64,000 bases of DNA from Isurus oxyrinchus (lineage: Eukaryota): the NCBI GenBank assembly GCA_026770705.1, contig JANJGN010000052.1:2170001-2234000 (forward strand), in the 5' to 3' direction. Numbering within the stretch: the first letter of the stretch is position 1; every line of letters starts with the position of its first letter. A program made the position numbers and the translations under genes. Shown here in pieces: positions 3,663 to 60,050 of the stretch. Below the pieces are notes generated by a model. It was not told the origin of the DNA and ran no database searches. It saw nothing but the letters and a program-made list of their open reading frames with translations.

Positions 3663-3737
3663 CTGAAAGGCAACAAGGGAGGGGACTGAACATCAAAAAG
3701 CAGAATATTACTTCAATGGAGAGAGTCTACAGAATGC

Positions 3738-21503: not shown

Positions 21504-21752
21504 TCAGTTTTTCTGGAACCTGATCTGTGCGTATTCCGTGTCCTCGCTCCTGTGCACAGTCCTGTCACCGCCGGGCAGCTTTGAAAAGTTGATGTTGGCG
21601 TAGAAAAGCTCGTCGGGTTTGTCGGGGTTCCCATGTCCAACATCGCCTCCCACTGGACCTTCAGAGAGATCCCGGGGAGCTGGGGTCTCCCCCTCGCTAG
21701 TTGTGTTTCTGGTTGTGTTCCGGGGCTCAGTAATCAGCACGTTCTGTTTACC
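21504..21752 (-). CDS. Gene B distal terminal exon with ITIM (LFYANI) and ITIM-like/ITSM (TEYAQI)
   Basis: Acceptor ctctgtag|GGT phase 0, 82 codons plus TGA; typical Siglec twin-tyrosine tail. Confidence 0.85.
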   Translation of the reverse strand, partial: GKQNVLITEPRNTTRNTTSEGETPAPRDLSEGPVGGDVGHGNPDKPDELFYANINFSKLPGGDRTVHRSEDTEYAQIRFQKN

Positions 21753-21869
21753 CTACAGAGAAATGGAAACAGAAGACATCCTCACATCATTTACTGGCAC
21801 TGATAGGGTTAAATTATTGTGCAGACTTGTTTAATTCTCTCTCTCCTGTCGGATAAAAGGCACCATCTA

Positions 21870-22055
21870 TGGCAGTGCAGCACTCCCTCAGTACTGACCC
21901 TCCAACAGTGCAGAACTCCCTCAGTGCTGACCCTCCGACAATACAGCGCTCCCTCAGTACTGACCCTCTGTCAGTGCAGCACTCCCTCAGTACTGACCCT
22001 CCGACAGTGCAGCACTCCTTCAGTACTGACCCGCTGTCAGTCCCGCACTCCCTCG
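21870..22055. repeat. 33-bp minisatellite (CAGTACTGACCCTCCGACAGTGCAGCACTCCCT)
   Basis: Tandem units; the family recurs across the window. Confidence 0.9.
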
Positions 22056-22509
22056 GTAATGGCTCTGGTGAGTGACGGCTTGGATTCTGCACTCAGGTGC
22101 CTGGTGTGAGGCTCAATAACATGAACCTTGTAATCAGAGAGAGGATGAGAGAGAGAGATAGAGGAGGGATAGAGACAGAGTGTTATTAATCTATTAATGT
22201 TTGTATTGTAATTGCAAACTGTCTTTTTAAACAGAGGTTTAGTCTGTGTGTGTGCCTGTGTGTATTTAAATTGGATTAAAGACAGCCAGTCTGTGTGCTT
22301 TGATGTATAGTAGTTTTGAGATGTCAACAAAGAGGTAAAGTGGTAATTTGCATTTTTAAATAAAACATTCAAAGTCTGAGAGTGAAATCTTAAACCAATC
22401 AACGTTTATATTACTAATAAAATTGATACGATGAAAGGGGATTTATTATTGGAAGAGATGGAGTTCAAAGGTCCTGATGATACATTGCGAATTTACCTTC
22501 AAACAGAAG

Positions 22510-22680
22510 CCATAAGACCATAAGACATAGGAGGAGAAATTAGACCATTCGGTCCATCGAGTCTGCTCCACCATTCATACATGGCTGATATGTTTCACAA
22601 ACCCAATTCTCCAACCTTCTCTCCTAACCATTGATCCCCTTACCAATCAAGAGCGTATCAATCTCCGTCTTCTTTACACT
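22510..22680 (-). mobile_element. CR1 LINE 3' end
   Basis: CATAAGACCATAAGACATAGGAG short-repeat tail followed by GACCATTCGGTCCATCGAGTCTGCTCC. Confidence 0.7.
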
Positions 22681-22684
22681 CAAG

Positions 22685-23114
22685 AGCTGGGTATAACTTG
22701 AGCAGTTTTGTGTGTGCAGAGCAGACGCTTGTAACAGCAAAGCAGCTGTAAGCCTACACCTGTCTGCAAAGGAACCAAAGTGAAAGGAACCTCATTTGGA
22801 ATTTGTGAGGTGAAAATGCTTTGCCTGGGTGTCTGCTTAAAGATAATGGGTTGTCTTAGAGGAGATTAGTTTGAGAATTTGTTATAAAGTTATGATAATA
22901 CTAGTTTGTAGCCATGTGCATATGTTTAACTTGTGAAAATTAATAAATGTCTCATTTAGATTGATATAAAATCATCTTGAGAACTGGTGGTCTTATTCCT
23001 GAATTTAGAGCTGCATCTCAAACATTTCACTGGGAAATATAGGTTACGACAGCTGTTTAAAGTTTCCCTCTGGGATTTTAAACAACAGCCTTTACCAGTT
23101 GCTGTGTATTAACA
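22685..23114 (+). mobile_element. LTR 3' fragment (partial copy at 25608-25917; related to 60080-60700)
   Basis: AATAAA and ..TAACA end; shared TTTCCCTCTGGGATTT..CAGCCTTTACC block. Confidence 0.55.
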
Positions 23115-23249
23115 GAGAGACAGCATGATACTGAACCATTGCTGACTCCACAGGTACAAATCAGTGGGTAACTGGGCTGGGAATCTGGGACATATGTTGT
23201 CTACACACTGAAATTGAAGCTTTGGAGTGAGTGTAAACAGCTCCTGTAC

Positions 23250-23331
23250 CTGGTGTTTCACAGAGAGTGGACTGGGGGTCAATGCAATGTCACTGGTCCC
23301 TGAAACTCTCTCCTCCATCGCTGTCTTTCTC
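23250..23331 (-). CDS. Gene B juxtamembrane cytoplasmic exon, distal copy
   Basis: ttattgcag|G..CAG|GTACAG, 82 nt, phase 2 to 0, RKTAMEERVSGTSDIALTPSPLSVKHQ. Confidence 0.8.
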
Positions 23332-23461
23332 CTGCAATAACACAATATCACACTGTGGTTATCATATAGCAGAGAGTCAGTGCAGCACAGACACAGAGCC
23401 CACTGTAACCTTACACCAATGACTGGACTCTCTCCTTAAATCACCTCTGCACAAAGCACAG

Positions 23462-23930
23462 AATCAAGACGCTCGACACCATCCAGGACAAAGCAGCCCG
23501 ATTGATCCATACCCCATCCACCACATTAAACATTCACTCCCTCCACCACGAACACACAGTGGCAGCAGTGTGTGTACCATCTACAAGATGCACTGCAGCA
23601 ACTCAGCAAGGCTCCTTCAACAGCACCTTCCAAATACGCGACCTCTACCATCTAGAAGGACAAGGACAGCAGACACATGGGAACACCACCACCTGGAAGT
23701 TCCCCTCCAAGTCACTCACCATCCTGACTTGGAAATATATCACCGTTCCTTCACTGTCGCTGGGTCAAAATCCTGGAATTCCCTCTCTAACAGCACTGTG
23801 GGTGTACCTACACCACATGCACTGCAGCGGGTGAAGAAGGCAGCTCACCACCACCTTCTCAAGGGTAGTTAGAGATTGGCATCAATGCGGACATCACCAG
23901 TGACAGCCACATTCGATGTAAGAATTAAAA
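23462..23930 (+). mobile_element. LINE 3' fragment (duplicated at 26265-26737)
   Basis: LDTIQDKAARLI..NIHSLHH..CTIYKMHCSNSARLLQQHLP motif and 3' tail. Confidence 0.8.
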
Positions 23931-23948
23931 ATCTCACAGCTCAATGTA

Positions 23949-23954
23949 TTTATT
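23949..23954 (-). terminator. Polyadenylation signal candidate for the proximal terminal exon
   Basis: AATAAA on the minus strand ~530 nt after the stop at 24487, at the duplication junction. Confidence 0.45.
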
Positions 23955-24254
23955 GTGACCCTGCTGCACACACGCCCTGTCAAAGGAACCTCTGTGGTTC
24001 CATTATTAATCGAAGCAGATCAGAGTTACTGCAACAACTTGCATTTATATAGCACCTTCAATGTAGCAAAATGTCCCAAGGCTCATCCGGGGATTGTTAG
24101 TCACATTTCACCTGTCTCTGAGGCACATGAGGAGATATTAGGGACAGGAGACCAACAGCTGAGTCAACAAAGTCAGTCATTAACGGGCATCTTAAAGGAG
24201 GAGCTGGAGATAGAGAATGAGAGACAGACACAGAAAGAAAGAGAGAGACAGAGA

Positions 24255-24289
<35 letters not shown>

Positions 24290-24486
24290 TGAATCTCACT
24301 CCCCAATGGCTCAGCATCCAGTCCTCTCTGGAGAAGCATTTCATTCCAAACCACACCAACCGTAGCCCAATTGCATCCCTTCCTCCCTCTCTCCCCCTCT
24401 CCCCCAGTGGGTTGTTTCCTGTTCCCAGGAATCTCAATCCCTACCCGCACACGCACATCTCCTCACTCCCACTCCCCATTTCTCAT

Positions 24487-24735
24487 TCAGTTATGCTCAA
24501 ACCTGATCTGTGCGTATTCCGTCTCCTCTTCCCTGTGGACAGACCCATCACCACTGGGCACCCTCAAAACTTGGGGATTGGCGTAGAGAAACTCTTCAGG
24601 TTTGCCGGGGTTCCCATGTCCAACATCGCCTCCCACTGGACCTTCAGAGAGACCCCGGGGAGCTGGGGTCTCCCCCTCGCCAGTTGTGTCTCTGGTTGTG
24701 TTCCGGGGCTCAGTAATCAGCACGTTCTGTTTACC
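24487..24735 (-). CDS. Gene B proximal terminal exon with disrupted ITIM (FLYANP) and intact TEYAQI
   Basis: Same acceptor and 249-nt length as the distal copy; open frame to TGA. Confidence 0.85.
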   Translation of the reverse strand, partial: GKQNVLITEPRNTTRDTTGEGETPAPRGLSEGPVGGDVGHGNPGKPEEFLYANPQVLRVPSGDGSVHREEETEYAQIRFEHN

Positions 24736-24879
24736 CTACAGAGAAATGGAAACAGAAGACATCCTCACATCATTTACTGGCACTGATAGGGTTAAGTTAT
24801 TGAGCAGCCTCATTAGTGTAAGTCTTGTCTCAGTGGGTTTAACCCTCTCTCTCATGTCATCTGAAAGAAACCACCTATG

Positions 24880-25462
24880 GCAGTGCAGTGCTCCCTCAGT
24901 ACTGACCCCCCCGACTGTGCAGCACATCCTCAATAGTGACCCTCTGTCAGTCTCACACTCCCTCATTACTGACCCTCTGTCAGTCTCGCACTCCCTCATT
25001 ACTGACCCTCTGTCAGTCTCACACTCCCTCAGTACTGACCCTCTGTCAGTCTCACACTCCCTCAGTACTGACCCTCTGACAGCACAGCAAAAACCTCAGT
25101 ACTGACCCTCTGACAGTGCTGCGCTCCCTCAGTACTGACCCTCCGACAGTGCCGCGCTTCCTCAGTACTGACCCTCCGACAGTGCCGCGCTTCCTCAGTA
25201 CTGACCCTCCGACAGTGCCGCGCTTCCTCAGTACTGACCCTCCGACAGTGCCGCGCTTCATCAGTACTGACCCTCCGACAGTGCAGCGCTTCCTCAGTAC
25301 TGACCCTCCGACAGTACAGCGCTTCCTCAGTACTGACCCTCCGACAGTGCCGCGCTTCCTCAGTACTGACCCTCCGACAGTGCAGCGTTCCCTCAGTACT
25401 GACACTCCGACGGTGCAACTCTCCCTCAGTACTGACCCTCTGTCAGTCTCGCACTCCCTCGG
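24880..25462. repeat. 33-bp minisatellite
   Basis: Tandem CAGTACTGACCCTCCGACAGTGCCGCGCTTCCT units. Confidence 0.9.
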
Positions 25463-26052
25463 TAATGGCTCTGGTGAGTGACGGCTTGGATTCTTCACTC
25501 AAGTATCTGGTGTGAGGCTCAATAACATGAATCTTGTAATCAGAGAGAGGATGAGAGAGAGAGAAAGAGAGAGAAAGAAAGGGAGGTTGAGATAGAGAGA
25601 GAGACTGGAATTTGTGAGGTGAAAATGCCTGGAATCTGCTTAAAGTCTATGGGTTGTCTTAGAGGAGATTAGTTTGAGAATTTGTTAAAAAGTTATGATA
25701 ATACTAGTTTGTAGCCATGTGCATATGTTTAACTTGTGTAAATTAATATATGTCTCATTTAGTTTGATATAAACCCATCTCCAGAACTGGTGGTATTATT
25801 CCTGAATTTAGAGCTGCATCTCAAACATTCCACTGGGAAATATAGGTTATGACAGTTGTTTAAAGTTTCCCTCTGGGATTTTAAACAACAGCCTTTACCA
25901 GTTTCCTTGTCATAACAGAGAGACAGCATGATACTGAACCATTGCTGACTCCACAGGTACAAATCAGTGGGTAACTGGGCAGGGAATCTGGGACATATGT
26001 TGTCTACACACTGAGATTGAAGCTTTGGAGTGAGTGTAAACAGCTCCTGTAC

Positions 26053-26134
26053 CTGGTGGTTCACAGAGAGTGGACTGGGGGTCAATGCAATGTCACTGGT
26101 CCCTGAAACTCTCTCCTCCATCGCTGTCTTTCTC
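26053..26134 (-). CDS. Gene B juxtamembrane cytoplasmic exon, proximal copy
   Basis: 82 nt, phase 2 to 0; differs from the distal copy by K>N near the end. Confidence 0.85.
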
Positions 26135-26857
26135 CTGCAATAACACAATATCACACTGTGGTTATCATATAGCAGAGAGTCAGTGCAGCACAGACACAGA
26201 GCCCACTGAAACCTTACACCAACGACTGGGACTGTCTCTTTAAATCAGTTCTGCACAAAGCACAGAATCAAGAAGCTTGACACCATCCAGGACAAAGCAG
26301 CCCGATTGATCCACACCCCATCCCCCACATTAAACATTCACTCCCTCCACCACGAACACACAGTGGCAGCAGTGTGTGTACCATCTACAAGATGCACTGC
26401 AGCAACTCAGCAAGGCTCCTTCAACAGCACCTTCCAAACCCACGACCTCTACCATCTAGAAGGACAAGGGCAGCAGACACATGGGAACACCACCACCTGG
26501 AAGTTCCCCTCCAAGTCACTCACCATCCTGACTTGGAAATATATCATCGTTCCTTCACTGTCGCTGGGTCAAAATCCTGGAACTCCCTCTCTAACAGCAC
26601 TTTGGGTGTACCTACACCACATGGACTGCAGCGGGTCAAGAAGGCAGCTCACTACCTCCTTCTCAAGGGGCAATTAGAGATGGGCAATTAATATCGGCCA
26701 CGCCAGTGACAGCCACATTCGATGAAAGAATTTAAAATCTCACAGCTCAGGAGTAAGCCACTCAGCCCATCGTGCCTGTGCTGGCCCTTTGTAAAAACTG
26801 TCCAATTAGTCCTAAACAAATGTTTATATTAAAATCAAGTTAAATCTTCAGACTTAC

Positions 26858-26954
26858 TTTCTCACACAGATGAAGATGAAGATTCCAGCCAGGAAAACAC
26901 TCAACATGATCCCAGCCGTGAACAATCCTACTGTCCATTTACTGGAGTCTCTAC
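26858..26954 (-). CDS. Gene B transmembrane exon GRDSSKWTVGLFTAGIMLSVFLAGIFIFICVRK
   Basis: tttttacag|GT..AA|GTAAGT, 97 nt, phase 1 to 2; uncharged hydrophobic helix with basic stop-transfer. Confidence 0.9.
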
Positions 26955-27826
26955 CTGTAAAAACAGCCATTAATTACTGCACTACAGGTTTACAATGATG
27001 CTCCGATGTATCTCGAGAAGCGATACACTCACTCAGTGTTTAAATACTCATTCTCGGGCAATGCTGACATTTATTGTCCATCCCTAGTTTCCCCTTGAGA
27101 AGGTGGTGGGGGGTCTTCCTCCTGAACCACTGGTTTGTCCCAAACTGGGAGACCAGTTCAGAGGGCAGGTAAGAGTTAACCATGTTGGTGTCTGAGACTG
27201 GAGTCACTTATACACCCAGACCTGTTAAAATGGACAGGTTTCCCTCACTAAATGTGTAATTATATCTTTAATTTCTATATATATGTATCAACTAACCTCA
27301 CTAAAATAATCAATTATCACGCTGTTGTTTGTGGGATCTTGCTGTGCACAAATCAGCTGTTGCGTTTCTCAACGTAATCTATGTAACATTTATATATAAT
27401 ATTTATCAATGTAATCTATGTAACATTTATATATAATGTTTCTCGATGTAATCTATGTAATGTTTATATATAATATTTTATCGTTTGGGAGGAGAACCTG
27501 AGTATTGCTGAGAAAGGACATTTTGTCAAAGCTTTCTGTCTTGCACCCAATGAAGCAGCTTATCTGGGGGAGAGGGTTCCAGATTTCCACTCCCCTTTGT
27601 GTGAAGAAGTGCTTCCTGACATCACCCCCTGAATGGCCTGGCTCCAATTTGACCAAGTGTTGCCATTGTCACATGAGGTCAGGTGATTCAAAGCTTGGTC
27701 AAAGGGGTCAGTTGTAAAGAGCATCTTAGAGGAGGTAGAGAGAGAGGTGGAGAGGTTGAGGGAGGGAATTCTCGAGTTTAGGGATCAATCCAGCTGAGTG
27801 GAGATCGATCCTGAGCGAGTTCTCAC

Positions 27827-28120
27827 CTTTGACCCACAGATACACCTTGAACATGGCTTCCCCATGTGGGTTTTGAACCGAGCAGGATGCAATCACTCCC
27901 CCCTCATCCTGGGGTCTCATCAGGGTGAGGGAACCAGTCACCAGATGCCCATCTCTGACCTGCCACGACACAAAACCTCCGTGTGTTTGGTTACCACTGA
28001 TGTTGGCACTGGGCAGGTGCCAGGTGAGGTCTCCGGGTGGGTTGGAGGTGGCCACACAGACGCAGGTGACCCCCTCTGACCTCCGAGTGCACTCCGACTG
28101 CTGGGAAATCTCCGGCTTAT
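27827..28120 (-). CDS. Gene B membrane-proximal Ig exon (MAG domain-5-like)
   Basis: 294 nt, phase 1-1; YKPEISQQSECTRRSEGVTCVCVATSNPP..SCSVQNPHG has the extra-Cys CxC pattern of MAG-type last domains. Confidence 0.9.
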
Positions 28121-28194
28121 CTGAGGAGGGAAGGACAACAATGAGACAACGTCATAGCAAAGTTAGAGCGTAAGATAGAATCTTCACACTGAAA

Positions 28195-29060
28195 CACTCA
28201 TTCCTGCCTTTGTTACCTCCACACTCGACTATCCCAACACTCTCCTGCCCGACCTCCCATCTTCCATTCTCCGTAAACATCAGCTCATCCCAAACTCTGC
28301 TGTCCCCATGTCCTAACTCACACCGAGTCCCGTTCACACATCACTCCATGTTGGTCACTGAGCTACACTGGCTCCCGGTCCGACAATGCCACAATTTTAA
28401 AATTAACATCGTTTCAAATCCCTCCTTACCCCCTCCCTATCTCTGTTACCTCCTCCAGCCCCTACAACCCTCCGTATCTCTGTAACCTCCTCCAGCCATC
28501 ACAACCCTCCCTATCTCTGTTACCTCCTCCAGACCCCACAACCCTCCCTATCTCTGTAACCTCCTCCAGCCATCACAACCCTCCCTATCTCTGTTACCTC
28601 CTCCAGACCCTACAACCCTCCCTATCTCTGTAACCTCCTCCAGCCTCTACACCCCTCCCTATCTCTGTAACCTCCTCCAGCCTCTACACCCCTCCCTATC
28701 TCTGTAACCTCCTCCAGTCCCTACACCCCTCCCTATCTCTGTAACCTCCTCCAGCCCCTACAGCGTTCCCTATCTCTGTTACCTCCTCCAGACCCCACAA
28801 CCCTCCCTATCTCTGTAACCTCCTCCAGCATCTACAACCCTCCGAGGTCTCTGTGTTCCTCCAATTCCGGCCTCTTGACCATCCCCCGATTCCTATCGCT
28901 CCACCATTGGCGGCCGTGTCTTCAGCTGCCTGGGCCCCGAGCTCTAGAATTCCCACCGTAAACCTCTCCATGTCTATCTCTCTCCTCATTTCAGACACTC
29001 CTTAAAATCTGGCCTCTTTCTCTGAGCTTTCAGTCCCTGTTCTAATATCTCCTTATGTAT
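28195..29060 (+). mobile_element. L2 LINE 3' fragment with internal 37-bp tandem expansion
   Basis: LHWLPV motif; tandem array at 28435-28845. Confidence 0.8.
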
Positions 29061-29187
29061 CTCGGAGAGGCACAGGGTGAAAAAAGCAGGGACGTGATGC
29101 TAGTTATGCTAAACAACAGCAAGGAAGCTGCCCTCAGACAGAAAGTGTTTGAGTTTTAAGCAGAGACAGGGGGAGTAAAATGCTTAC

Positions 29188-29463
29188 ATTGTACGTTCAG
29201 GTGGGTGATGTTGGAGGTGCTGTTACCCACCGGGTTCCTCGCTGTGCAGTAGAAACCTGCATCATTCTCCCGTGTTACAGGAGTGAAGGAGAGAGTGCGG
29301 CTACTTGTGTTTAACTGGGTGCTGGTGTTCCCCTCGATCCTGAACCAGGTGTAATGAGATATCGGTGGGACACTTTCACTGGAGCAGGTTAATGTGATAT
29401 TGCTTCCCTCTCTTATCCCACCTGAGGATCTGCTGATGGACACCATCGTCTCCTGTGGGGGAT
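29188..29463 (-). CDS. Gene B C2-set Ig exon (CD22/sialoadhesin-like)
   Basis: 276 nt, phase 1-1; PPQETMVSIS..EGSNITLTCSSESVPPISHYTWF..DAGFYCTARNPVG. Confidence 0.9.
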
Positions 29464-29784
29464 CTGGAACAAAGACAGAGAACAATCAGCAGGTAATCCC
29501 CACACCCCACAGCTCTCCGAAATCTCTGCGCTCCTCCAATTCCGACCTCTTGCACATTCTCCCATTCCCATCTCTCCACCATTGGCGGCCGTGCCTTCAG
29601 CTGCCTGGACCCTAACCTCTGGAATTCCCTCCATCATTTCTCACCTCCTTCGGACAAAATCTGACCCCGAGTCACATTAGGAGATATTAGGAAAGGTGAG
29701 CAAAAGCTCGCTGAAAGCAGGAGGTTTTAACAGTGTGTCTTAATGGTTTTAAGGAGCATCTTAATGGTTGAGAAAGAGTTGGAG

Positions 29785-31012
29785 ATTGTGTATCTCCCGC
29801 GCATCCCCCCTTGCAAATTCCTCTCCCTCCCAGTGCAATGTAAGGGTCCCTCCTGTCTTCACTTTTCACCCCACCAGCCTCCTCATTCAAAGGATCATTC
29901 TCCGCCATTTCAGCCAACTCCAGCATGATGCCACCACCAAACACATCTTCCCTTCACCACATCCGCCCCCCCCCCCCCCCACCCCCCCCCCACGTTGGCA
30001 TTCCATAGGGATCATTCCCTCGAGGTCACTCTGGTCCACTCCTCCATCACCCCTAGCACCTCAACCCTCTCCGATGACATCTTCCCATGTATTTACAGAA
30101 GGTGTAACACCTGCCACTTTACTTCCTCTCCCCTCACTGTCCAATGACCCAAACACTCCTTCCAGGTGAAGCAGCGCTTCATGCAGACTTCCTTCAATTT
30201 AATCTACTGCATTCACTGCTCCCAGTGTGGTCTCCTCTACATTGGAGACACCAAACACAGACTGGGTGATCGCTCTGATGAACACCTTCAGCCTGTCTGC
30301 AAGCATGACCCAGACCTCCCTGTTGCTTGCCATTTTAACACCCCACCCTGCTCTCATGCCCACATGTCCGTCCTTGGCCTGCTGCATTGTTCCAGTGAAG
30401 CCCAACGCAAACTGGAGGAACAGCACCTCATCTTCCGACCTGGCACTTTTCAGCCTTCCCGACTGAATATTGAGATCAACACTTTCAGATCATGAACTCT
30501 CTCCTCGATCTTCACTGTTTTTTGAACCCTTTTTTATGTATTCATTTTAATTGTTTTATTTGTTGACTGTTTTCCACTTATTTTTATTATTATTATTTGA
30601 AATTCATTTCCATTTTATTGATTGTGTTAAACCGCAGATTTTAGTCTATTTTCGATCTTTATTCCCTCCACCGTCCCCTCTCCCTGCCACACCCCCACGA
30701 GGGCCATCTGTCTCTTTCCAGAGTGCTTACCCTGGTCCGCCCATTATCACACTCTGCTTAATGTCACCATTAGCACCTCCTTTATCCAATACCACCACTG
30801 TTAACAACCCTTTGACCTTTTGTTTATGACATCTTCCACAATCTCTCCATTGCCTCCACCTATCGCTGGTTTTCTATCCAGCTCCACCTGTCCCATCGCC
30901 CCCCCTTAGACAGGATATATTTCACCACATGTCTACTTCCCTTTAGCTCTGAAGAAGAGTCATACAGACTCCAAACGCTAACCCTGTCTTTCTCTCCACA
31001 GATGCTGCCAGA
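29785..31012 (+). mobile_element. Penelope-like retroelement 3' part with GIY-YIG endonuclease
   Basis: NLIYCIHCSQCGLLYIGDTKHRLGDR..EH..PVACHFN..RKLEEQHLIFR; terminal hammerhead-like motif. Confidence 0.85.
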
Positions 31013-31322
31013 TGCTCAGAATCAGCTGGATGGACAGAAAGACCAATGAGTGGCTTAGATCAAGAGGAGACGTTCAGCAATTAAAAGGGTTGTTCAGGAC
31101 AGTTAGAGAGAGAAAGGTCATCAAGTACGGAGATTGGAAACGAAGACCTGACAGCCTTGTCCTCACAACCATTGAAGGAGAAACTGAGAGCAAAAACAGA
31201 AAGGGAGAGGAAAAATTGGATGTGTGGATAACGTGGACTGAGCGAGGATTGAAGAAAACTGGATTAAAAACAACACGATCCCAATGGCTCCACGGAGACC
31301 ACGGAGACAACAACCAAACAAA
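31012..31322 (+). mobile_element. RTE-type LINE 3' fragment
   Basis: MLRISWMDRKTNEW..IEGETESKNRKG resembles the RTE ORF C-terminus. Confidence 0.65.
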
Positions 31323-31339
31323 TGTATCTCCACACTCAC

Positions 31340-31406
31340 ATTCCACAGTGATGGTTATGAACCCCTCCACTGCTCCATGTTCATTCTCTGCCACACACTG
31401 ATAGTC
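31340..31406 (-). pseudogene. Gene B truncated C2-set exon remnant (DYQCVAENEHGAVEGFITITVE)
   Basis: Matches the last 67 nt of the intact exon at 53148-53429; donor GTGAGT kept, 5' ~215 nt missing. Confidence 0.85.
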
Positions 31407-31603
31407 ACAACCTGGGCCCCCTCTGCCCTATCAGGTTGGGATAAACAATCCCAAGGGTCAATACAAGGAACAGCTCTCCCTGCTCAATATCACTCATTAA
31501 AAAAGGACCAGTTTTGTCTTCAACCCAGTGAAGTTTGTGGGATCTTGCCCAGCACATTATATCCTAATACCGCTAATATAGAATGAAAGGTGTATGTACT
31601 TAC

Positions 31604-31900
31604 CTTGCACAGTTAGTACGAGGGTCCGCTCCGATGAAACAGATGGATATCTCACTCTGCAGCTGAGAGTGTGTCCGTGGTGTTTGAGTGATGGGATCAG
31701 GGTCAGAACAGAAGTATAGGTCAGAGTGACACCATGCTGAGTTACAGTGTTTGAGACTGATCCAGGCACATCAGTGGGAGTGTCCCAGGTTAAGACAGGT
31801 GCTGCTGTTCCATTGCACGTTGTGTTGAAGGTGCAGCTTACATCCACACGCTTTCCTGCAATAATTTCCGCAGGGAATATCGTGGGTTTATCTGTGAAAT
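31604..31900 (-). CDS. Gene B first C2-set exon (Siglec domain-2 type)
   Basis: 297 nt, phase 1-1; DFTDKPTIFP..VSCTFNTTC..PVLTW..PSLKHHGHTLSCRVRYP with the interdomain Cys. Confidence 0.9.
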
Positions 31901-32713
31901 CTAACAGACAGAGAATGGATCCTTTCAGAGAAATATAATGTGAAGCATCAGTTCAAATAGAAATCACAGTCCCACAAGAGAAAGCACTTTTACAAGGATG
32001 ATATCAGAACTGAGAGGTTACAACGATCAGGAGAGAATTTCCTATTTTCAGACTTAGTGGAGTTTCTGTCACTCAGATGAATTCATTTCCACTTTGAGAC
32101 AATTGAATTGACAATCCCAGGTGAGGGTGGGGGAGCAGCTCACAGTTCCTGGCACACTGGCTTGTTACTTTCTCCGAAATCTGCCAGATTTAAATTCTAT
32201 CCTGTCCCCAGCAGGAGAGAATCCATTTGAACCAATCACTGAACCGGCATCAAAAGCAGATGATCAGGTTATTGATCACATAGCTGTTTCTGGGAGCTTG
32301 CTGTGAATAAATTGGCTGCTGTGTTTCCCATATTACAACAAGGGCTACATTTCAAGAATTATTTCATTGGTTGTGAATCCATTTATGACGTACAGAGATG
32401 TTGAAAGGTGCTATAGAAATGCGAATCTTTCTTTTGTCGATATGTAAGACTGTCAAACAGGGTTACGGAGATCGATGGGAGTGGATATCCTGATAACATT
32501 GATGGACACAGTCAATACATTTAATCATTGATATTAAAGTGAGTATTAAAGGTTGCTTTAGGACTGAACTGGAAGCTATCACCAGGTTATTGAGAATCAG
32601 ACAGTGTGTTATAATAAGCTGTGTTTTGTGTTAATATGTAAACATCACAGTTTGTGTTATTTCCCATTGAGTGTTGAATGTGAATTGTTGAGTAATTATA
32701 ACACAGCACTTAC

Positions 32714-33082
32714 CAGAAACGTAAAGCTGGGTTACAGGGTAATAGTTATGGCTCGGACCATTGTCAAATTCTATCTTGAAAAAATAAGGTCCTGCATCTT
32801 CCCATCTGATGTTGTTTATAATCAGGGAACAGTCGCCATCTTTCAGGTCTCCAGACAGCAGGGTCCGATGGCGGAACCGTGGTAACTCGTGACTGTGATC
32901 CTTGGAGTGAAAGGCAATGGGAGCCCAGGGAATCTGTTTCTCATTATTAAACCAGACTCCACCTCGCGGTTGGTTTTCCAGACACGATGGATAACTGTAA
33001 TGACATGGAATCTGTACACACGAACCTTCCTGCGCTGTCACCTCTCGTGGAATGTCACCTTTCCACTCTTGTGAGGGTTCAT
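32714..33082 (-). CDS. Gene B second V-set exon (V2; essential Arg replaced by Lys)
   Basis: 369 nt, phase 1-1; QEGSCVQIPC..GDLKDGDCSLIINNI..DAGPYFFKIE. Confidence 0.9.
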
Positions 33083-33159
33083 CTGGGGAGAGAAATCTCA
33101 ATATTTAACTCTGGATGGTTTGTGGATCCACTGAAACCGATATTTACAGATGAGGCTGA

Positions 33160-33975
33160 ATTGGGGGGATGGTCAATACTGAGGAGAATGGCAACAAATT
33201 ATTTTGGCAGGAAGAATAGAAAAACAGGATATTATTTAAATGGAGACAGGCTGCAGAATGCAGTACAGAGGGATCTGGGTGTCCTTGTACATGAATCACA
33301 GAAAGTCAGCATTCAGGAACACCACGGAATGAGGAAGGCAAGTGGAATGTTGGCCTTTATTGCAAAGGGATGGAGTATAAAAGGAGGGAAGACTTGCAAC
33401 AGCTGCACAGGGTAAGATTGTATCAGGAGCAGTGTGTACAGTTCTGGTCTCCTTACTTAGGGAGGGATAGACTCTGCATTGAACGCAGTCCAGAGGAGGT
33501 TCACTGGGCTGATTCCTGGGATTAAAGGGTTTGTCCTGTGAGGAAATGTTGAGCAGGTTGGGCCTGTATCCATTGGAGTTTAGAAGAATGAGTGGTGACC
33601 TTATTGAAACATATCCGATTCCGAGGGGGCTTGACATGGTGGATGCTGGGAGGATGTTTCCCCCTCGTGGGGGAATCTAGAACCAGGGAGCACAGTTTCG
33701 GAATGAGGGCTCTCCCATTTAAGACTGAGATGAGGAGGAATTTCCTCTCTCAGAGGGGCGCTAGCCTGTGGAATTCTCTTCCCCAGAGAGCAGTGGAGGC
33801 TGGGCCATTGAATAGACTCAAGGCTGAGTGAGGCAGGTTTTTGATCGACAAGGGAGTCAAGGGTTTGTGTCAGGCAGGAAAATGGAGTTAAGGCCACAAC
33901 CAGATCAGTGAGAGCAGGCTCAAGGGGCCGAATGGCCTGCTCCTGTCCCTATTTCTTATGTTCCTACATTCTTAC
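33160..33975 (+). mobile_element. CR1 LINE 3' fragment
   Basis: FGRKNRKTGYYLNG..QRDLGVLVH..MRRNFLSQRGASLWNSLPQRAVEA and 3' tail. Confidence 0.9.
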
Positions 33976-34519
33976 CTTCTTAAAATATTAAAGCTGCAGA
34001 ATAAACATGAAGTGAATGACCCGCTCGACCCACCTTCCATCTGGGGGTCCCATGGGGAGGACCCTTCCTGAGCCAGATCCACCAGCCAACATGGTCTGGA
34101 TCCGAGCACAGGAGACACGGGGGGGGAGTGACTAACAGGCTCCTTGTGACAGACCCCGTCTGTCCAATGGCTGGCTTTCAGCTGCCAAGGCCAGAGTGGT
34201 CCTTGCTAAAACCAGCTCAGGACAGGCCAGGACCCCTGTGCAGACCCCCTCCAGCGCTGCAGCCTCTGTACAAACCCCTCATGCGCTTGTGGAGAGACAC
34301 AAACAAGGCTGCACATTACCGAGGAGAATCCCTTCTACGGACTAAGGGGCTGACTCATCACCTTAAACTCAGCAAATGAGGAGGCTCTCGCTCGGTATCG
34401 GGTCTTGGCATTCGCTCAATAAAAATAATCAAATGACATTTTGGTCAGAAATCTAAGGAGGATGTACATTCCGTCAAAAATAAGACTCAAGCTGGGGTCA
34501 AGGGTCAAAGGGCAACAAC

Positions 34520-36100
34520 TTATATTTACACAACAACTTGAACATGACAAATCACCCCAAGTTGCTACACAGGAGCGTCATAAAACAAAGTATGTCACCC
34601 AGACACATGTGGAGATATTAGCGACAGCTGGCCAGAAGAGTTCGGTGTTATGGAGAGACAGAGAGAAAGAGACAAAGAGACAGAGAGAGAGAGATAGAGA
34701 GAGTGAGAGAGAGGGATGGAGAGGGGTTGAGGGAGGGTATTACAGAGCTCGGGCCCCAGGCAGCTGAAGGCATGGACGCTGATGTTGGAGTGATGTGCTC
34801 GGGGGATGGTCAAGAGGCTGGAATTGGAGGAGTGCAGAGACATCAGAGGGTTGGAGGGGCTGGTGGAGGTTACAGAGGTAGGGAAAGTTGTCGGGACTGG
34901 AGCAGGCTACAGAGATAGGGAAGCTTTTAGGGGCAGGAGGAAGTTACAGAAATAGGGAGGGTTGTAGTGGCTGGAGGAGGTTGCAGAGATTGGTAGGTTT
35001 GTTGGGCAGGATGAATTTACAGCTATAGGGAAGTGATAGGAGCTTGAAGAGGTTACAGAGATAGGGATGGTTGTAGACAATTGAAGAGGTTACAGAGATA
35101 GGGAGTGTTGTAGGTACTGTAGGAGGATGAGGAGATTACAGGGATAGTGCGGAAACAAAGATGAAAATTTGGACATTGCGACTTTGCTTGACCAGGAGCC
35201 AGTCTCGGTCATCGAGCAGAGTGGGTGATAAGGGAACGGGACTTGGTGTGAGTAAGGACGTGGTCAGCAGTTTTGGATGGCCTCAAGTTTATGGAGTGTA
35301 GAGCGTGTGTTGGAACAGTCGAGTCTGGAGGTAATGAAGGCGTGGATGAGGGTTTCAGCAGCAGATGAGCTGAGACAGGGTGACGTCGTGCGATGTTACG
35401 CAGGTGGAAATAGACGGTGTTAGTGAGGGTGCAGATATGAGGCCGGAAGCTCATCTCAGGATCAAATGGGACAACAAAGCTGTGAACAGATTGGCTTCAA
35501 TCTCAGAGAGCTGCCAGGGAGTGGAATGGAGTTGGTAGCGAGGGAACAGAGTTTGGAGCGGGGAATGAAGACAATGGCCTCAGTCTTTCCAATATTTAAT
35601 TGGAGGGAATTTCTGCCCATCCAGTACTGGATGTCGGATAAGCAGCCTGATAATTTAGCAGCAGTGGAGGAGTCGAGAGAGGTGGTGGTGAGGTAGAGCT
35701 GGGGATCCTCAGTGGACAGGTGAAAAGTAACGCTGTTCAGATGATGCTGCAAAGCCATTGCAAGTGATTCTCTGGCTACGATGAGATGGATAAGAATGGA
35801 GCCAGGGGAGAGCAGTCCCACCCAGCTGGACCACAGTGGAGAGGGGTTGGAGGAGGATGGTGTGGTCGAGCGTGTCAAAGGCTGCAGACAGATCGAGAAG
35901 GACGAGGAGGGAAAGTTGACCTTTGTCACAGTCACACAGGATGCCATTTGTGACCTTGATAAGAGCTGTTTCAGCACAGTGGCTGGGGTGGGAACCTGAT
36001 TGGAGGGATTCAAACATGGAGTTCCGGGAAAGATGGGAATGGATTCGGGAAATGGAAACACGTTCAAGGACTTTGGAGGGGAACGAGAGGCTGGAGATGG
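34520..36100 (-). mobile_element. L2 LINE remnant with RT fragment
   Basis: RPISSLSFPSKVLERV..ETALIKVTN..LLVLLDLSAAFDTLDH..LQLNIGKTEAIVF. Confidence 0.9.
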
Positions 36101-36381
36101 GACGGGGGTTTACACGGACAGTGTGAGGGGTGGAAGGTGTAGTGGGGAGGAGACACTTCACTCAGGGGGGAAGTGTCATCATCCCTCAGCTCGGTTTACG
36201 TTACAGCTATGATGTGGATTCAATCACACACAATAAGCTCATGGATCTGGGAGCAGAAATAGACAAATCATTAAAAATAGTGAAGCTGGTTAACACGGCC
36301 AAAAAACAAGCAAATCAAACACTATTATTTCCCATTGAGTGTTGGATGTGAATTGTTGAGTAATTATAACACAGCACTTAC

Positions 36382-36759
36382 CAGAAACGTGAAGCTGGGT
36401 TGCAGGATAGTAGCTGTAACTATTGCTGCTGTCAAATTCTATTCTGAAATAATAATAATGTGCATCTTCCCGTCTGATGTTGTTTATAATCAGGGAACAG
36501 TCGCCATCTTTCAGGTCTCCAGACAGCCGTGTCCTATTGCGGAACCGTGTTAACTCGCGATTGTGATCCTTGGAGTGAAAAGCTATAGTCCCTCTAGACC
36601 TTGTATTCCATGTGTACCATTTCACGTACCAGATTCCGACACGTGCTCTCCCTACTACACGTGCTGGATAACTGTAGTTACATGGAATCTGGACACACGA
36701 ACCTTCCTGCGCTATCACCTGTCGTGGAGTTTCACCTTTCCACTCTTGTGACAGTCCAA
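36382..36759 (-). CDS. Gene B first V-set exon (V1; sialic-acid-binding Arg intact)
   Basis: 378 nt, phase 1-1; VGLSQEW..GSCVQIPC..DCSLII..YYYFRIEFDSSNSYSYYP. Confidence 0.9.
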
Positions 36760-42548: not shown

Positions 42549-42690
42549 CCAGGACCTGTCCGACTGCTCGCCTGGGGAGGAACTGCCCACACGCTCTGCT
42601 TGGGCTGAATGACCTCTTCCCGTGCTGCTCCCTCTGTGTATTTAATTAGAAAGGGTGGATGTGTCACTGTGAGACAAAATGAGGAAGTGG
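42549..42690 (-). promoter_or_regulatory. Gene B putative promoter and non-coding exon 1
   Basis: Donor GG|GTAAGT at 42548, TTAAATA TATA-like at ~42640, PU.1-like AAAATGAGGAAGTG at 42676-42689; conserved with 59911-60050. Confidence 0.55.
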
Positions 42691-46474: not shown

Positions 46475-46591
46475 TTATAAATTCCCATAAACAGAATCCT
46501 CAGCAAATTCACAGTTTGCGTAAAGATCATCATCTGTATCAGGATTGACTCCGCGGTTAGATTTCATTTCCAGAACCTTCTCATCTTTCTT
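46475..46591 (-). CDS. Gene C terminal exon KKDEKVLEMKSNRGVNPDTDDDLYANCEFAEDSVYGNL*
   Basis: Strong acceptor tttctgtttctattacag, 117 nt in phase 0, acidic tyrosine motifs; not in the supplied ORF track in this frame. Confidence 0.7.
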   Translation of the reverse strand, partial: KKDEKVLEMKSNRGVNPDTDDDLYANCEFAEDSVYGNL

Positions 46592-46686
46592 CTGTAATAG
46601 AAACAGAAATGATCAGAGTGACAATCAGAGTGATCAGTGTTTAGTATTATTGATCCAAATCAAAAATTCCACCCACAATAGATACA

Positions 46687-48822
46687 TTAATTATTGATAC
46701 TGAACAGGGTTTGATTATTGATTCTGAACGGGGTTTGATTATTGATTCTGAACGGGGTTTGATTATTGATACTGAACAGGGTTTGATTATTGATACTGAA
46801 TGCGGTTTGATTATTGATTCTGAACAGTGTTTGATTATTGATACTGAACGGGGTTTGATTATTGATTCTGAACGGGGTTTGATTATTGATACTGAACGGG
46901 GTTTGATTATTGATTCTGAACGGGGTTTGATTATTGATTCTGAACGAGGTTTGAATATTGACACTGAATGGGGTTTGATTATTGATCCTGAACAGGGTTT
47001 GATTATTGATCCTGAAAGGGGTTTGATTATTGATACTGAACAGTGTTTGATTATTGATACTGAACAGGGTTTGATTATTGATCCTGAACAGGGTTTGATT
47101 ATTGATCCTGAAAGGGGTTTGATTATTGATACTGAATAGTGTTTGATTATTGATACTGAACAGGGTTTGATTATTGATTCTGAACAGTGTTTGATTATTG
47201 ATACTGAACGGGGTTTGATTATTGATTCTGAACAGGGTTTGATTATTGATTCTGAATGGGGTTTGATTATTGATACTGAACGGGGTTTGATTATGGATTC
47301 TGAATGGGGTTTGATTATTGATTCTGAACGGGGTTTGATTATTGATCCTGAATGGGGTTTGATTATTGATTCTGAACGGGGTTTGATTATTGATACTGAA
47401 CGGGGTGTGATTATTGATACTGAACGGGGTTTGATTATTGATACTGAACGGGGTTTGATTATTGATTCTGAAAGGGGTTTGATTATTGATTCTGAAAGGG
47501 GTTTGATTATGGATTCTGAACGGGGTTTGATTATTGATCTTGAACGGGGTTTGATTATGGATTCTGAAAGGGGTTTGATTATGGATTCTGAACGGTGTTT
47601 GATTATTGATCCTGAACGGGGTTTGATTATGGATTCTGAAAGGGGTTTGATTATGGATTCTGAATGGGGTTTGATTATTGATTCTGAACGGGGTTTGATT
47701 ATTGATTCTGAAAGGGGTTTGATTATTGATTCTGAACGGGGTTTGATTATTGATACTGAACGGGGTTTGATTATTGATTCTGAACGGCGTTTGATTATTG
47801 ATACTGAACGGGGTTTGATTATTGATTCTGAACGGCGTTTGATTATTGATACTGAACGGGGTTTGATTATTGATTCTGAACGGCGTTTGATTATTGATAC
47901 TGAACGGGGTTTGATTATTGACATTGAATGGGGTTTGATTATTGATTCTAAACGGTGTTTGATTATTGATTCTAAACGTTGTTTGATTATTGAACCTGAA
48001 TGGAGTTTGATTATTGATTCTGAACTGGGGTTGATTATTGATACTGAACGGGGTTTGATTATTGATTCTGAACGGCGTTTGATTATTGATACTGAATGGG
48101 GTTTGATTATTGATTCTGAACGGCGTTTGATTATTGATACTGAACAGTGTTTCATTATTGATACTGAACGGGGTTTGATTATTGATTCTAAACGATGTTT
48201 GATTATTGAACCTGAACGGAGTTTGATTATTAATTCTGAACAGTGTTTGATTATTGATTCTGAAAGGGGGTTGATTTTTGATACTGAATGGGGTTTGATT
48301 ATTAATTCTGAATGGGGTTTGATTATTGATACTGAATGATGTTTGATCATTGATTCTGAACGGGGTTTGATTATTGATTCTGAACGGGGTTTGAGTATTG
48401 ATACTGAACGGGGTTTGATTATTGATACTGAACGGAATTTGATTATTGATACTGAATGGTGTTTGATTAATGATACTGAACGGGGTTTGATTATTGATTC
48501 TGAACGGGGTTTGATTATTGATACTGAACAGGGTTTGATTATTGATACTGAACGGGGTTTGATTATTGATTCTGAATGGGGTTTGATTATTGATTCTGAA
48601 TGGGGTTTGATTATTGATACTGAACGGGGTTTGATTATTGATTCTGAACGGGGTTTGATTATTGATACTGAACGGGGTGTGATTATTGATTATGAACGGG
48701 GTTTGATTATTGTTACTGAACGGGGTTTGATTATTGATACTGAACGGGGTTTGATTATTGATTCTGAACGGGGTTTGATTATTGATACTGAACGGGATTT
48801 GATTATTGATTCTGAACGGTGT
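46687..48822. repeat. 24-bp tandem array (TTGATTATTGATWCTGAACGGGGT), ~89 copies, intronic
   Basis: Direct reading; length divided by 24. Confidence 0.95.
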
Positions 48823-48952
48823 TGGGTGTGAGTTTGGTTGGGTTTGGGAGTGACTGTATAAAAAATTGCAGATACAGGACTGGAGCAGCCATATCAATAA
48901 CCAGGCTACTGGAGCAGCTGAGAGGCTGGGGATCCTGTGGTGTGTGACTCAC

Positions 48953-49057
48953 CTGATTCCTCAAAGCCCAACCACGCTCACAGTTTTCATAAACAGGACC
49001 TCGATATTCATCAACACGGTGGCTCGATTTGATTCCTGCTTTCCCCTCGCCTCTCTT
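48953..49057 (-). CDS. Gene C cytoplasmic exon KRGEGKAGIKSSHRVDEYRGPVYENCERGWALRNQ
   Basis: ctctattacag|AAG..CAG|GTGAGT, 105 nt, phase 0-0; paralogous to the terminal exon including its acceptor. Confidence 0.6.
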
Positions 49058-49402: not shown

Positions 49403-49705
49403 CAGAAAGATGTTCTGTACAACAAACCTGAGCCTCACACCCAGATCTCAATAATCAGTAGAAATCTTTCAAAGGCATCAATCATTGCAATCTGTCTTTA
49501 TAAAGTCACAACATCAACAAAGGACGGTGTTGGTGGTGGAAGTGAATTCCAATCGTTCCGTTACTTACCCGTACCTTTCCGACTGCTCGCCTGGGGAGGA
49601 ACTGCCCACACGCTCTGCTTGGGCTGAATGACCTCTTCCTGTGCTGCTTCCTCTGTGTATTTAATGAGAAAGGGTGGATGTGTCTCTGTGAGTCAAATCA
49701 GGAAT
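49403..49705 (-). other. Third copy of the promoter/exon-1 block, inside gene C
   Basis: Near-identical to 42385-42690 and 59745-60050; donor kept, GAGGAAGT changed to CAGGAATT. Confidence 0.85.
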
Positions 49706-50407: not shown

Positions 50408-50504
50408 TTTCTCACACACTTGAAGATGAAGAATCCACTCAGTCCAACACTCAAACAGATTCCAGCTCCAAGCAATCCTGCTTTCCATTCATTGGAATCT
50501 CGCC
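50408..50504 (-). CDS. Gene C transmembrane exon RRDSNEWKAGLLGAGICLSVGLSGFFIFKCVRK
   Basis: ttttacag|GG..AA|GTAAGT, 97 nt, same phases as the gene B TM exon. Confidence 0.85.
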
Positions 50505-51769: not shown

Positions 51770-52051
51770 GTTCCACAGTGATGGTTATGAATCCCTCCAC
51801 TGCTCCATGTTCATTCTCTGCCACACACTGATAGTCTCCAGTGTCCCTGGATGTAACGTGAGGAATCACCAACCACAGCTCATTGTTGGAACTTGTTCTG
51901 TTCATTGGGACATTAAGATGTCGCCACGTCAGGTTAGAAGCTGGGAAGCTCTCGACAGAGCAGATTATCACTGCAGAATTCCCCTCAATTATATTGATCG
52001 ATAAAGCGTTAATCACACCAAGAGAAGTAATTGATAGGTTCCGTGGTGCAT
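51770..52051 (-). CDS. Gene C C2-set exon (third C2)
   Basis: 282 nt, phase 1-1; APRNLSI..EGNSAVIICSVESFPASNLTW..DTGDYQCVAENEHG. Confidence 0.9.
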
Positions 52052-53147: not shown

Positions 53148-53429
53148 ATTCCACAGTGATGGTTATGAACCCCTCCACTGCTCCATGTTCATTCTCTGCC
53201 ACACACTGATAGTCTCCAGTGTCCCTGGATGCAACGTGAGGAATCACCAACCACAGCTCATTGTTGGAACTTGTTCTGTTCATTGGGACATTAAGATGTC
53301 GCCACGTCAGGTTAGAAGCTGGGAAGCTCTCGACAGAGCAGATTATCACTGCAGAATTCCCCTCAATTATATTGATCGATGAAGCATTAATCATATCAAG
53401 AGAAGTAATTGAGAGATTCTGTGGTCCAT
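53148..53429 (-). CDS. Gene C C2-set exon (second C2)
   Basis: 282 nt, phase 1-1; GPQNLSI.. otherwise near-identical to 51770-52051. Confidence 0.9.
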
Positions 53430-54273: not shown

Positions 54274-54558
54274 CTTGCACAGTTAGTACGAGGGTCTTCT
54301 CCGATGAAACAGATGGATATCTCACTCTGCAGCTTAGAGTGTGTCCGTGGTGTTTGAGTGATGGGATCAGGGTCAGAACAGAAGTATAGGTCAGAGTGAC
54401 ACCATGATGAGTTACAGTGTTTGAGACTGATCCAGGTACGTCAGTGGGAATGTCCCAGGATAAGACAGGTGCTGCTGTTCCACTGCACGTTGTGTTGAAG
54501 GTGCAGCTTACATCCACACGCTCTCCTGCATTAATTTCAGCAGGGAATATCGTGAAAT
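54274..54558 (-). CDS. Gene C first C2-set exon (12-nt in-frame deletion relative to gene B)
   Basis: 285 nt, phase 1-1; DFTIFPAEINAG..SCTFNTTC..HHGHTLSCRVRYP. Confidence 0.9.
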
Positions 54559-55588: not shown

Positions 55589-55954
55589 CAGAAATGTGAA
55601 GCCGGGTTACAGGGTAATAGTTATAGCGCGGACCATTGTCAAATTCTATTCTGAAAAAATAAGGTCCTGCATCTTCCCGTCTGATGTTGTTTATAATCAG
55701 GGAACAGTTGCCATCTTTCAGGTCTCCAGACAGCCGGGTCCGATGGCGGAACCGTGGTAACTCGTGACGGTGATCCTTGGAGTGAAAGGCTATGGACAAT
55801 CTTCTCCGTTCCTCATTATTAAACCAGACTCCACCTCGTGGTTGGCTGTCCAAATGTGCTGGATAACTGTAATGACATGGAATCTGTACACACGAACCTT
55901 CCTGCGCTGTCACCTCTCGTGGAGTATCACCTTTCCACTCTTGTGACAGTCCAA
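55589..55954 (-). CDS. Gene C V-set exon (Arg intact)
   Basis: 366 nt, phase 1-1; VGLSQEW..GSCVQIPC..DAGPYFFRIEFDNGPRYNYYP. Confidence 0.9.
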
Positions 55955-59438: not shown

Positions 59439-59478
59439 CTTGGAGAAGTGACAGGAGGAAGTATGATTTACCGATCAT
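59439..59478 (-). CDS. Gene C signal-peptide exon MIGKSYFLLSLLQ
   Basis: ATG at 59478, phase-1 donor G|GTAATA, acceptor tctctttcag at 59521; joins VGLS|QEW in frame. Confidence 0.85.
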
Positions 59479-59910: not shown

Positions 59911-60050
59911 CCAGGACCTGTCCGACTGCTCGCCTTGGGAGGAACTGCCCACACGCTCTGCTTGGGCTGAATGACCTCTTCCTGTGCTGCTCCCTCTGTG
60001 TATTTAATGAGAAAGAGCTGATGTATCTCTGTGAGACAAAATGAGGAAGT
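59911..60050 (-). promoter_or_regulatory. Gene C putative promoter and non-coding exon 1
   Basis: GG|GTAAGT donor, TTAAATA, AAAATGAGGAAGT PU.1-like site. Confidence 0.55.

What the first reader, a model, noticed from the sequence alone, without database searches (positions are those of the whole stretch)
46475..49057. Gene C tail carries three YxN motifs and ITAM-like spacing: possible activating partner of gene B
Seen: two paralogous phase-0 exons give ..PVYENCE.. and DDDLYANCEFAEDSVYGNL*, that is YxxC-x7-YxxL preceded by acidic residues, unlike gene B's tail although the ectodomains are near-identical. Established: YxN binds Grb2-family SH2; an ITAM is YxxL/I-x6-8-YxxL/I; mammalian activating Siglecs use DAP12 rather than their own tyrosines. 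Caveat: SVYGNL also fits the ITIM consensus.
Basis: partly seen in the sequence, partly recalled or inferred. Interest (0 to 1): 0.7.

Follow-up and report, generated by a model that had tools for sequence, protein, structure and literature searches.

The report
Third tail type of shark Siglecs
These two exons belong to a tyrosine-bearing tail found on roughly a hundred copies of a shark immune sugar receptor and conserved from sharks to rays, where it likely signals through Grb2-type adaptor proteins, but in this particular gene copy an overlooked upstream exon is one base short, so the tail is predicted to be out of frame.

Summary
The two exons and their motifs are real (minus strand). RNA-type contigs and database proteins from 11 shark and ray genera support that frame. 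In gene C this exon is 84 nt, the only such copy in the assembly, so gene C as assembled loses the tail, while 45 of 52 complete sister copies keep it. The motif is no ITAM (residue +3 of the first Tyr is C/W/F in 19 of 19 homologues) and fits an ITIM in only 6 of 19. The conserved feature is YxN, pointing to Grb2-family adaptors; the sign of the signal is untested. Gene C is not a specific partner of B. The family has three tail classes, including a classical TM-Arg activating type, and about 670 V exons. The same 85-nt exon also precedes 24 of 24 leader exons, and contigs that skip it give a tyrosine-free tail. The scan noted this family, its TM-Arg class and V shuffling before on other DNA; no listed note described this tail.

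The parts
59911..59995 (-). 85-nt 5' exon of gene C; same sequence family as the bridging exon
   Evidence: a copy lies within 1.3 kb upstream of 24 of 24 leader exons in 664 kb; a database model splices it to the leader (P0049)
59439..59478 (-). Leader (signal peptide) coding part of gene C
   Evidence: matches N-termini of homologues
55589..55954 (-). Siglec-type V-set exon, essential Arg present
   Evidence: (Siglec-5 E 5e-17, Arg aligned)
54274..54558 (-). C2-set exon D2 (12-nt in-frame deletion relative to gene B)
53148..53429 (-). Ig exon D3
51770..52051 (-). Ig exon D4, tandem copy of D3
   Evidence: D4-TM joint in 4 of 4 runs
50408..50504 (-). TM exon, 97 nt, ends in phase 2; no central basic residue; juxtamembrane Cys
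49569..49652 (-).
   Evidence: (tables 4, 7)
48953..49057 (-). Tail exon T1 (YEN motif in phase 0); symmetric 105-nt duplicate of the last exon, skippable
   Evidence: skipped in P0106
46690..48830 (.). Intronic 21-nt minisatellite; 3 to 276 motif hits in sister loci that keep T1
46475..46591 (-). Last exon T2 (YANC-x7-YGNL-stop in phase 0)
42549..42633 (-). 85-nt 5' exon copy upstream of gene B's leader (42098-42059)
21504..36759 (-). Gene B body for comparison: two V exons (Arg in the first, Lys in the second), D2, broken D3, two other Ig exons, TM, and two tandem tail-exon pairs ending in an ITSM-type motif

Best explanation
The two exons are the coding end of a third, conserved tail class of elasmobranch Siglec-like receptors that likely signals by recruiting Grb2-family adaptors to its own YxN tyrosines, and gene C is a copy in which a one-base-short bridging exon is predicted to put that tail out of frame. 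Shown: splice path TM > 85-nt bridge > T1 (optional) > T2 gives two or three YxN motifs. It is open in 45 of 52 complete sister copies and present in database proteins from sharks and rays. Inferred: ligand binding by the V domain clusters the receptor, Src-family kinases phosphorylate the acid-preceded tyrosines, and Grb2/Grap/Gads-type SH2 domains dock, giving a co-stimulatory or uptake signal without DAP12 or FcR-gamma (odds about 0.65 for Grb2-family docking, about 0.5 for an activating outcome). Inferred: gene C as assembled makes a receptor with an intact ectodomain and a tail without signalling motifs. Its stop lies 8 nt before the last junction, so by the usual 50-nt rule (recalled) it would escape decay.
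For: Frame: database proteins read TM-bridge-T1-T2 or TM-bridge-T2 in this frame (P0037, P0105, P0106, P0064, P0052 and others). A tail profile finds 27 proteins at E<=1 among 7,426 candidates, all shark or ray Siglec-like. Tyr24, Tyr35 and Asn37 are invariant in 12 chosen tails at 37-82% identity. RNA-type contigs show GT..AG joints TM>bridge (X6), bridge>T1 (X3; loose end in X1) and T1>T2 (X3; loose ends in X1). Sister copies: 18 of 22 complete loci in a sample chosen by last-exon similarity and 27 of 30 in a sample chosen by TM exon are in frame. Gene C defect: 84-nt bridge, 1 match in the genome against 608 matches for the 85-nt-type end. The contigs covering the site in X1 and X5 carry the extra base. 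No central basic TM residue in 21 of 21 TMs shown. YxN as Grb2 SH2 site: PMC2709368 and PMC4810170, passages.
Against: No binding or signalling test was run. Grb2 sites also mediate inhibition in TIGIT (PMC13539489 passages) and CD22 (PMC5302901 abstract). Gene B's inhibitory-type tail has YAN too. In organism A a direct TM>T1 joint (tyrosine-free frame) occurs in X1, X2 and X3, and no TM>bridge joint was listed there, so the full in-frame path is seen in one piece only by inference, from contigs of organism B. The runs are only guessed to be RNA. The filter for the 19-protein motif table required a terminal YxN, so that Asn is invariant there by construction. Two of those 19 lack Asn at the first Tyr. 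The one-base loss may be an assembly error.
Confidence: 0.58

Rival explanations
1. The last exon is a non-canonical ITAM that binds the tandem SH2 domains of Syk/ZAP-70.
For: Spacer of 7 residues in 18 of 19 homologues, acidic residues before the first Tyr, and V/I/L/M at +3 of the second Tyr in 17 of 19. CEACAM families use own ITAM-like tails (PMC2832619, PMC5112662 passages).
Against: Residue +3 of the first Tyr is Cys in 16, Trp in 2 and Phe in 1 of 19, never Leu/Ile. The spacer is 5 in one ray. No Pfam ITAM match for 4 tail queries at E<=10 and no PDB match for the tail profile; short queries make these weak tests.
Confidence: 0.15
2. The tail dampens signalling, through SHP-1/2 at the terminal motif or through Grb2-SHIP as in TIGIT.
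For: The window's terminal motif fits the ITIM consensus given in PMC7226832. Grb2 sites are inhibitory in TIGIT and CD22.
Against: The full ITIM consensus holds in only 6 of 19 homologues (7 if Ile counts at +3), and position -2 is Ala or Pro in 10. The family already has a distinct ITIM/ITSM class with 395 terminal-exon matches.
Confidence: 0.2
3. The 84-nt bridge is an assembly error and gene C is an ordinary intact member of the YxN class.
For: The variant is unique in the assembly. All other exons of gene C are open. Contigs covering the site carry the extra base.
Against: The lost base is not in a homopolymer, and the same exon carries two further substitutions. Real damage is common in this class: 7 of 52 complete sisters are broken, two of them by the same TM deletion. 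Contigs drop rare variants, and this one is diluted about 600-fold.
Confidence: 0.35
4. The main product of this gene class skips the bridge and is a tyrosine-free decoy or adhesion receptor; the YxN tail is a minor isoform.
For: Direct TM>T1 joint in X1, X2 and X3; in X1 its contig depth (1856) is close to that of the D4>TM joint (2229). The bridge acceptor scores 2.0 against 6.2-8.8 for T1, T2 and B's last exon in a crude matrix. P0053 (catshark) has the TM>T2 basic stub.
Against: Contig depth cannot rank isoforms (tool statement). X5, X6 and X7 of organism B show no direct joint and support the bridge. The YxN frame is conserved across sharks and rays. The skipped frame is itself cut early in some sisters. 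Gene B's accepted first tail exon scores as low (1.4).
Confidence: 0.15

Closest known systems
Paired Siglecs (Siglec-5/14, Siglec-11/16) and Siglec-15
   Same: Siglec V-set with essential Arg; inhibitory and non-inhibitory members share ectodomains within one cluster.
   Different: Known activating Siglecs use a charged TM residue and DAP10/DAP12 (PMC7226832, PMC2832619 passages). This class has none and carries its own tyrosines. The shark family has a separate TM-Arg class for that role.
CEACAM3 and marsupial/Xenopus ITAM-bearing CEACAMs
   Same: Paired receptors whose non-inhibitory member has its own tyrosine tail built from small exons, with conserved YxN Grb2 motifs (PMC2832619, PMC5112662 passages). 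This is the closest functional analogue.
   Different: Different Ig family. Those tails hold YxxL-type ITAM or ITAM-like motifs split by phase-0 introns; here both half-sites are YxN, the first ends in Cys, and the pair lies in one exon.
CD22 Grb2 site; ITT-like motifs of TIGIT and CD226; catfish LITR 1.1b; prolectin
   Same: Receptor-tail YxN motifs that recruit Grb2.
   Different: There YxN is a single site, usually beside ITIMs, with either sign of outcome. Here two or three YxN motifs are the whole conserved signal.
Transmembrane adaptors LAT/NTAL (recalled, no call)
   Same: Several YxN motifs and a juxtamembrane Cys.
   Different: They have no ligand-binding ectodomain; no sequence relationship was tested.

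Membership tests
Siglec family | N-terminal V-set domain most similar to Siglecs | tested here: met
   Top 17 PDB rows are Siglecs/MAG, E 5e-17 to 5e-12; Pfam V-set and Ig_CD22 above cut-off
Siglec family | Essential Arg on the F strand | tested here: met
   Aligned with the Siglec-5 Arg motif; Lys in gene B's second V
Siglec family | C2-set domains, TM, type I topology | tested here: met
Siglec family | Sialic-acid binding | not testable with these tools
   needs glycan array
CD33-related Siglecs | Orthology or synteny with the mammalian CD33r cluster | not tested
   no tree against bony-vertebrate Siglecs was built; database names are automatic
ITAM | YxxL/I at both half-sites | tested here: not met
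   first half-site YxxC in the window; C/W/F in 19 of 19 homologues
ITAM | 6-8 residue spacer with acidic residues upstream | tested here: met
   7 in the window and in 18 of 19 homologues
ITIM | [I/L/V/S]xYxx[L/V], conserved | tested here: inconclusive
   met in the window, but in only 6 of 19 homologues
DAP12/FcR-gamma-coupled activating receptor | Basic residue within the TM helix | tested here: not met
   no central basic residue in 21 of 21 TMs shown; met instead by the TM-Arg class, 9 genes in 664 kb
Grb2-recruiting (ITT-like) tail | YxN motif conserved | tested here: met
   17 of 19 at the first Tyr of the last exon
Grb2-recruiting (ITT-like) tail | Phosphorylation and Grb2 binding | not testable with these tools
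   needs pull-down
One-to-one paired receptor with gene B | Partner's ligand-binding domain is the closest relative | tested here: not met
   B's V exons rank 24 and 41 of 41
Paired-receptor family | Ectodomains do not sort by tail class | tested here: inconclusive
   label changes equal shuffled values (B 8 vs 8.0, C 4 vs 3.9, R 4 vs 4.7), but 18 of 29 branches are open and 7 of 40 rows were dropped after failed extraction

The most novel reading that the evidence does not exclude
Sharks carry a multi-megabase Siglec cluster with hundreds of V exons wired to three signalling outputs. One output is an adaptor-independent, LAT-like multi-YxN tail unknown in other Siglecs. That tail is switched on and off by an 85-nt exon which is also the family's 5' exon, reused inside the gene in both galeomorph and squalomorph sharks: inclusion gives a Grb2-recruiting activating receptor, skipping gives a silent decoy with the same ligand.
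Probability: 0.3. Interest if true: 0.75.

Novelty: new variant of a known kind. Interest (0 to 1): 0.52.

Why it matters
Fish are described as having four conserved Siglecs and no CD33-related ones (PMC7226832, teleost data). Here one shark assembly holds 668 V-exon matches with inhibitory, adaptor-coupled and self-signalling tails. If the YxN class activates, Siglecs reached activation by two routes at the base of jawed vertebrates, as CEACAMs did, and a splice switch could tune it. The claim is testable with chimeric receptors. Gene C itself is the wrong copy to test; in-frame sisters such as L020, L027 or L134 are the right ones.

Tried and rejected
A 22-nt micro-exon (49590-49569) would restore the frame in gene C only; no contig shows that acceptor, so it is kept as unlikely. 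The idea that T1/T2 are leader exons was dropped: homologues start with the leader at 59478. Pfam (4 tail queries) and PDB (profile A1) gave no match for the tail. The V-exon tree was poorly resolved and lost 7 of 40 rows. The search for a second 84-nt copy found none. X14 (organism C) gave no splice joint. The absence of a TM>bridge joint in X1/X3 is not evidence of absence. mis-placed exon ends and its tally is discarded (redone); only its printed skipped-frame text is cited. No within-species selection test was run, as copies are 94-100% alike. No complex prediction was sent, since phosphotyrosine binding cannot be modelled there. Literature searches listed no paper on shark Siglec tails or on this expansion. 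Most subscription journals are not in that library, and supplements (whale shark file 9, Xenopus file 1) were not opened.

Full report
Observation. The finding lies on the minus strand of a shark Siglec-like gene. Its V domain hits Siglec-5, sialoadhesin, Siglec-10, -7, -8, CD33 and MAG first, and its closest named relatives are Cetorhinus and Carcharodon proteins at up to 84%. Both have good acceptors and are duplicates of each other (score 85; shuffle maximum 31 of 500). A 2.1-kb array of 21-nt units separates them.

The frame. The TM exon (50504-50408) ends in phase 2, so T1 and T2 are in the YxN frame only if an exon of length 1 mod 3 lies between. Database proteins show it: Cetorhinus P0037 and Carcharodon P0105 read TM, a 28-residue bridge, T1 and T2, and P0106, P0064 and P0052 read TM, bridge and T2. 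That bridge is at 49652-49569. RNA-type contigs (RNA is the tool's guess; the joints have GT..AG ends) show TM>bridge in X6, bridge>T1 and T1>T2 in X3, and matching loose ends in X1 (one search was laid on sister locus L017). Contigs of X5 and X7 reach one base into T1's acceptor, as expected if the bridge precedes it (my inference). The same calls show a direct TM>T1 joint in X1, X2 and X3, which reads T1 in a tyrosine-free frame, and catshark P0053 has the TM>T2 basic stub. Both isoform types therefore exist; contig depth cannot say which dominates.

Gene C is defective as assembled. Its bridge is 84 nt. In sister loci it is 85 nt in 22 of 23 (the other is 72 nt) and in 37 of 37 measured (3 of 40 not measurable). 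The 84-nt end occurs once in the assembly against 608 matches of the 85-nt type. With it, none of the four canonical routes gives the YxN tail; the longest product stops in T1, 8 nt before the last junction. Leader to TM is open. Whether the lost base is a mutation or an assembly error is open; I put 0.65 on real.

The class. Of 39 loci picked by T2 similarity, 22 had TM through T2 and 18 of these were in frame (4 of the 18 have a damaged T1 acceptor, which would leave bridge>T2 in frame). One had T1 without TM in range and 16 were orphan T2 exons, 14 of them in one repeated arrangement. Of 40 further loci picked from the TM-exon list, 30 were complete and 27 in frame. Whole-genome counts of 26-mers with up to 2 mismatches are: T2 137, C-type TM 112, V exon 668 and inhibitory-type terminal exon 395; controls were 0. 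Some contigs may be alternative haplotypes, but 32 of the C-type TM rows listed lie on contig C52 alone. The window's own V site was not among the rows listed, so those listings are subsets. In 664 kb around the window there are 11 ITIM/ITSM-type, 9 TM-Arg short-tailed and 5 C-type TM exons. Among 102 V homologues my patterns classed 20 as YxN-tailed, 31 as ITIM/ITSM and 8 as TM-Arg, leaving 43 unclassed. A tail profile found 27 proteins, all from sharks and rays, including a second V subfamily and three proteins with a different TM; finding none in other vertebrates is weak evidence.

The motif. In 19 homologues the residue at +3 of the first Tyr of the last exon is Cys 16, Trp 2, Phe 1. The spacer is 7 in 18. 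Position -2 of the last Tyr is Ser 8, Ala 7, Pro 3, Val 1 (the filter demanded a terminal YxN). So it is not an ITAM by the definition in PMC2832619 (passages), and it is an ITIM in only 6 of 19. What is kept is YxN, the Grb2 SH2 target (PMC2709368 passages; PMC4810170 passages). The TM has no central basic residue. I infer Src-family phosphorylation and Grb2-family docking. The outcome is open because Grb2 sites activate in CD226 and inhibit in TIGIT (PMC13539489 passages) and CD22 (PMC5302901 abstract). I favour activation or uptake because a distinct inhibitory class already exists and because CEACAM paired receptors with their own tyrosine tails also carry YxN (PMC2832619, PMC5112662 passages).

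Pairing with gene B. B has two V exons, 68% and 80% identical to C's in protein, a broken D3, different membrane-proximal domains and two tandem tail pairs that also contain YAN. B's V exons rank 24th and 41st of 41 by identity to C's. V exons do not sort by tail class, though the tree is weak. The pairing is family-wide, not B-C, and the TM-Arg class is the classical activating candidate, as earlier notes e1-9340811 and e1-9572213 also read it.

Dual use of the bridge. A copy of the same 85-nt exon lies within 1.3 kb upstream of 24 of 24 leader exons in the 664 kb; 5 of its 34 copies sit between TM and T1. Carcharodon model P0049 splices it to the leader, and Heptranchias P0081 has it both at the N-terminus (score 89 against shuffle maximum 34) and in the tail. 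So the double role is shared by distant sharks. That the 5' copy carries the transcription start is inferred; contigs cannot show starts.

Novelty and verdict. Nine searches of the held library listed nothing on this tail or expansion. PMC8455134 (one passage) only names Siglecs among jawed-vertebrate families, PMC7226832 (passages) covers teleosts, and PMC4079198 (passages) covers CEACAMs. Subscription reviews and supplements were not seen. Four look-ups of earlier scan notes showed none on the YxN tail. Verdict: a real, conserved, apparently undescribed tail variant of a known receptor kind, wrongly assigned to an intact gene C and to an ITAM. Interest 0.52.

Noticed in passing
G000 contigs C52, C71, C121, C150, C189, C323 and others: Very large Siglec-like cluster: 668 V-exon, 608 5'/bridge-exon and 395 inhibitory-tail matches; haplotype redundancy not resolved.
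   Followed up: partly
window 21504-26134 (-): What looks like a separate gene A is a second copy of gene B's two tail exons with no TM of its own. The first copy has lost the ITIM (+3 Pro) and the second keeps it, so the choice of last exon could change inhibition. Tandem tail pairs recur elsewhere in the region.
   Followed up: partly
window 32714-33082 (-): Gene B's second V domain has Lys at the essential-Arg position; its first V keeps Arg.
   Followed up: no
G000:C52:2280275-2299574: One inhibitory-type gene has ten tandem V exons, nine of them open.
   Followed up: no
L013, L015, L016 and 11 more loci: Orphan last exons without T1, copied together with an opposite-strand gene start about 4 kb away.
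   Followed up: partly
P0109-P0111 (bamboo and epaulette sharks): A T2-like last exon ends receptors with a different TM and V subfamily, suggesting that the tail exon is an old, reusable module.
   Followed up: no
window 46475-46591, 48953-49057: A cytoplasmic Cys at Tyr+3 is conserved in 16 of 19 homologues; unexplained (lipidation or redox control are guesses).
   Followed up: no
L110 (G000:C34:15127700-15134900): A C-type TM exon and T2 exon on a 19.9-Mb contig away from the main cluster, without a nearby bridge or T1.
   Followed up: no
window 3364-3726 (-): V exon of a second Siglec subfamily, similar to the N-terminus of P0105.
   Followed up: no
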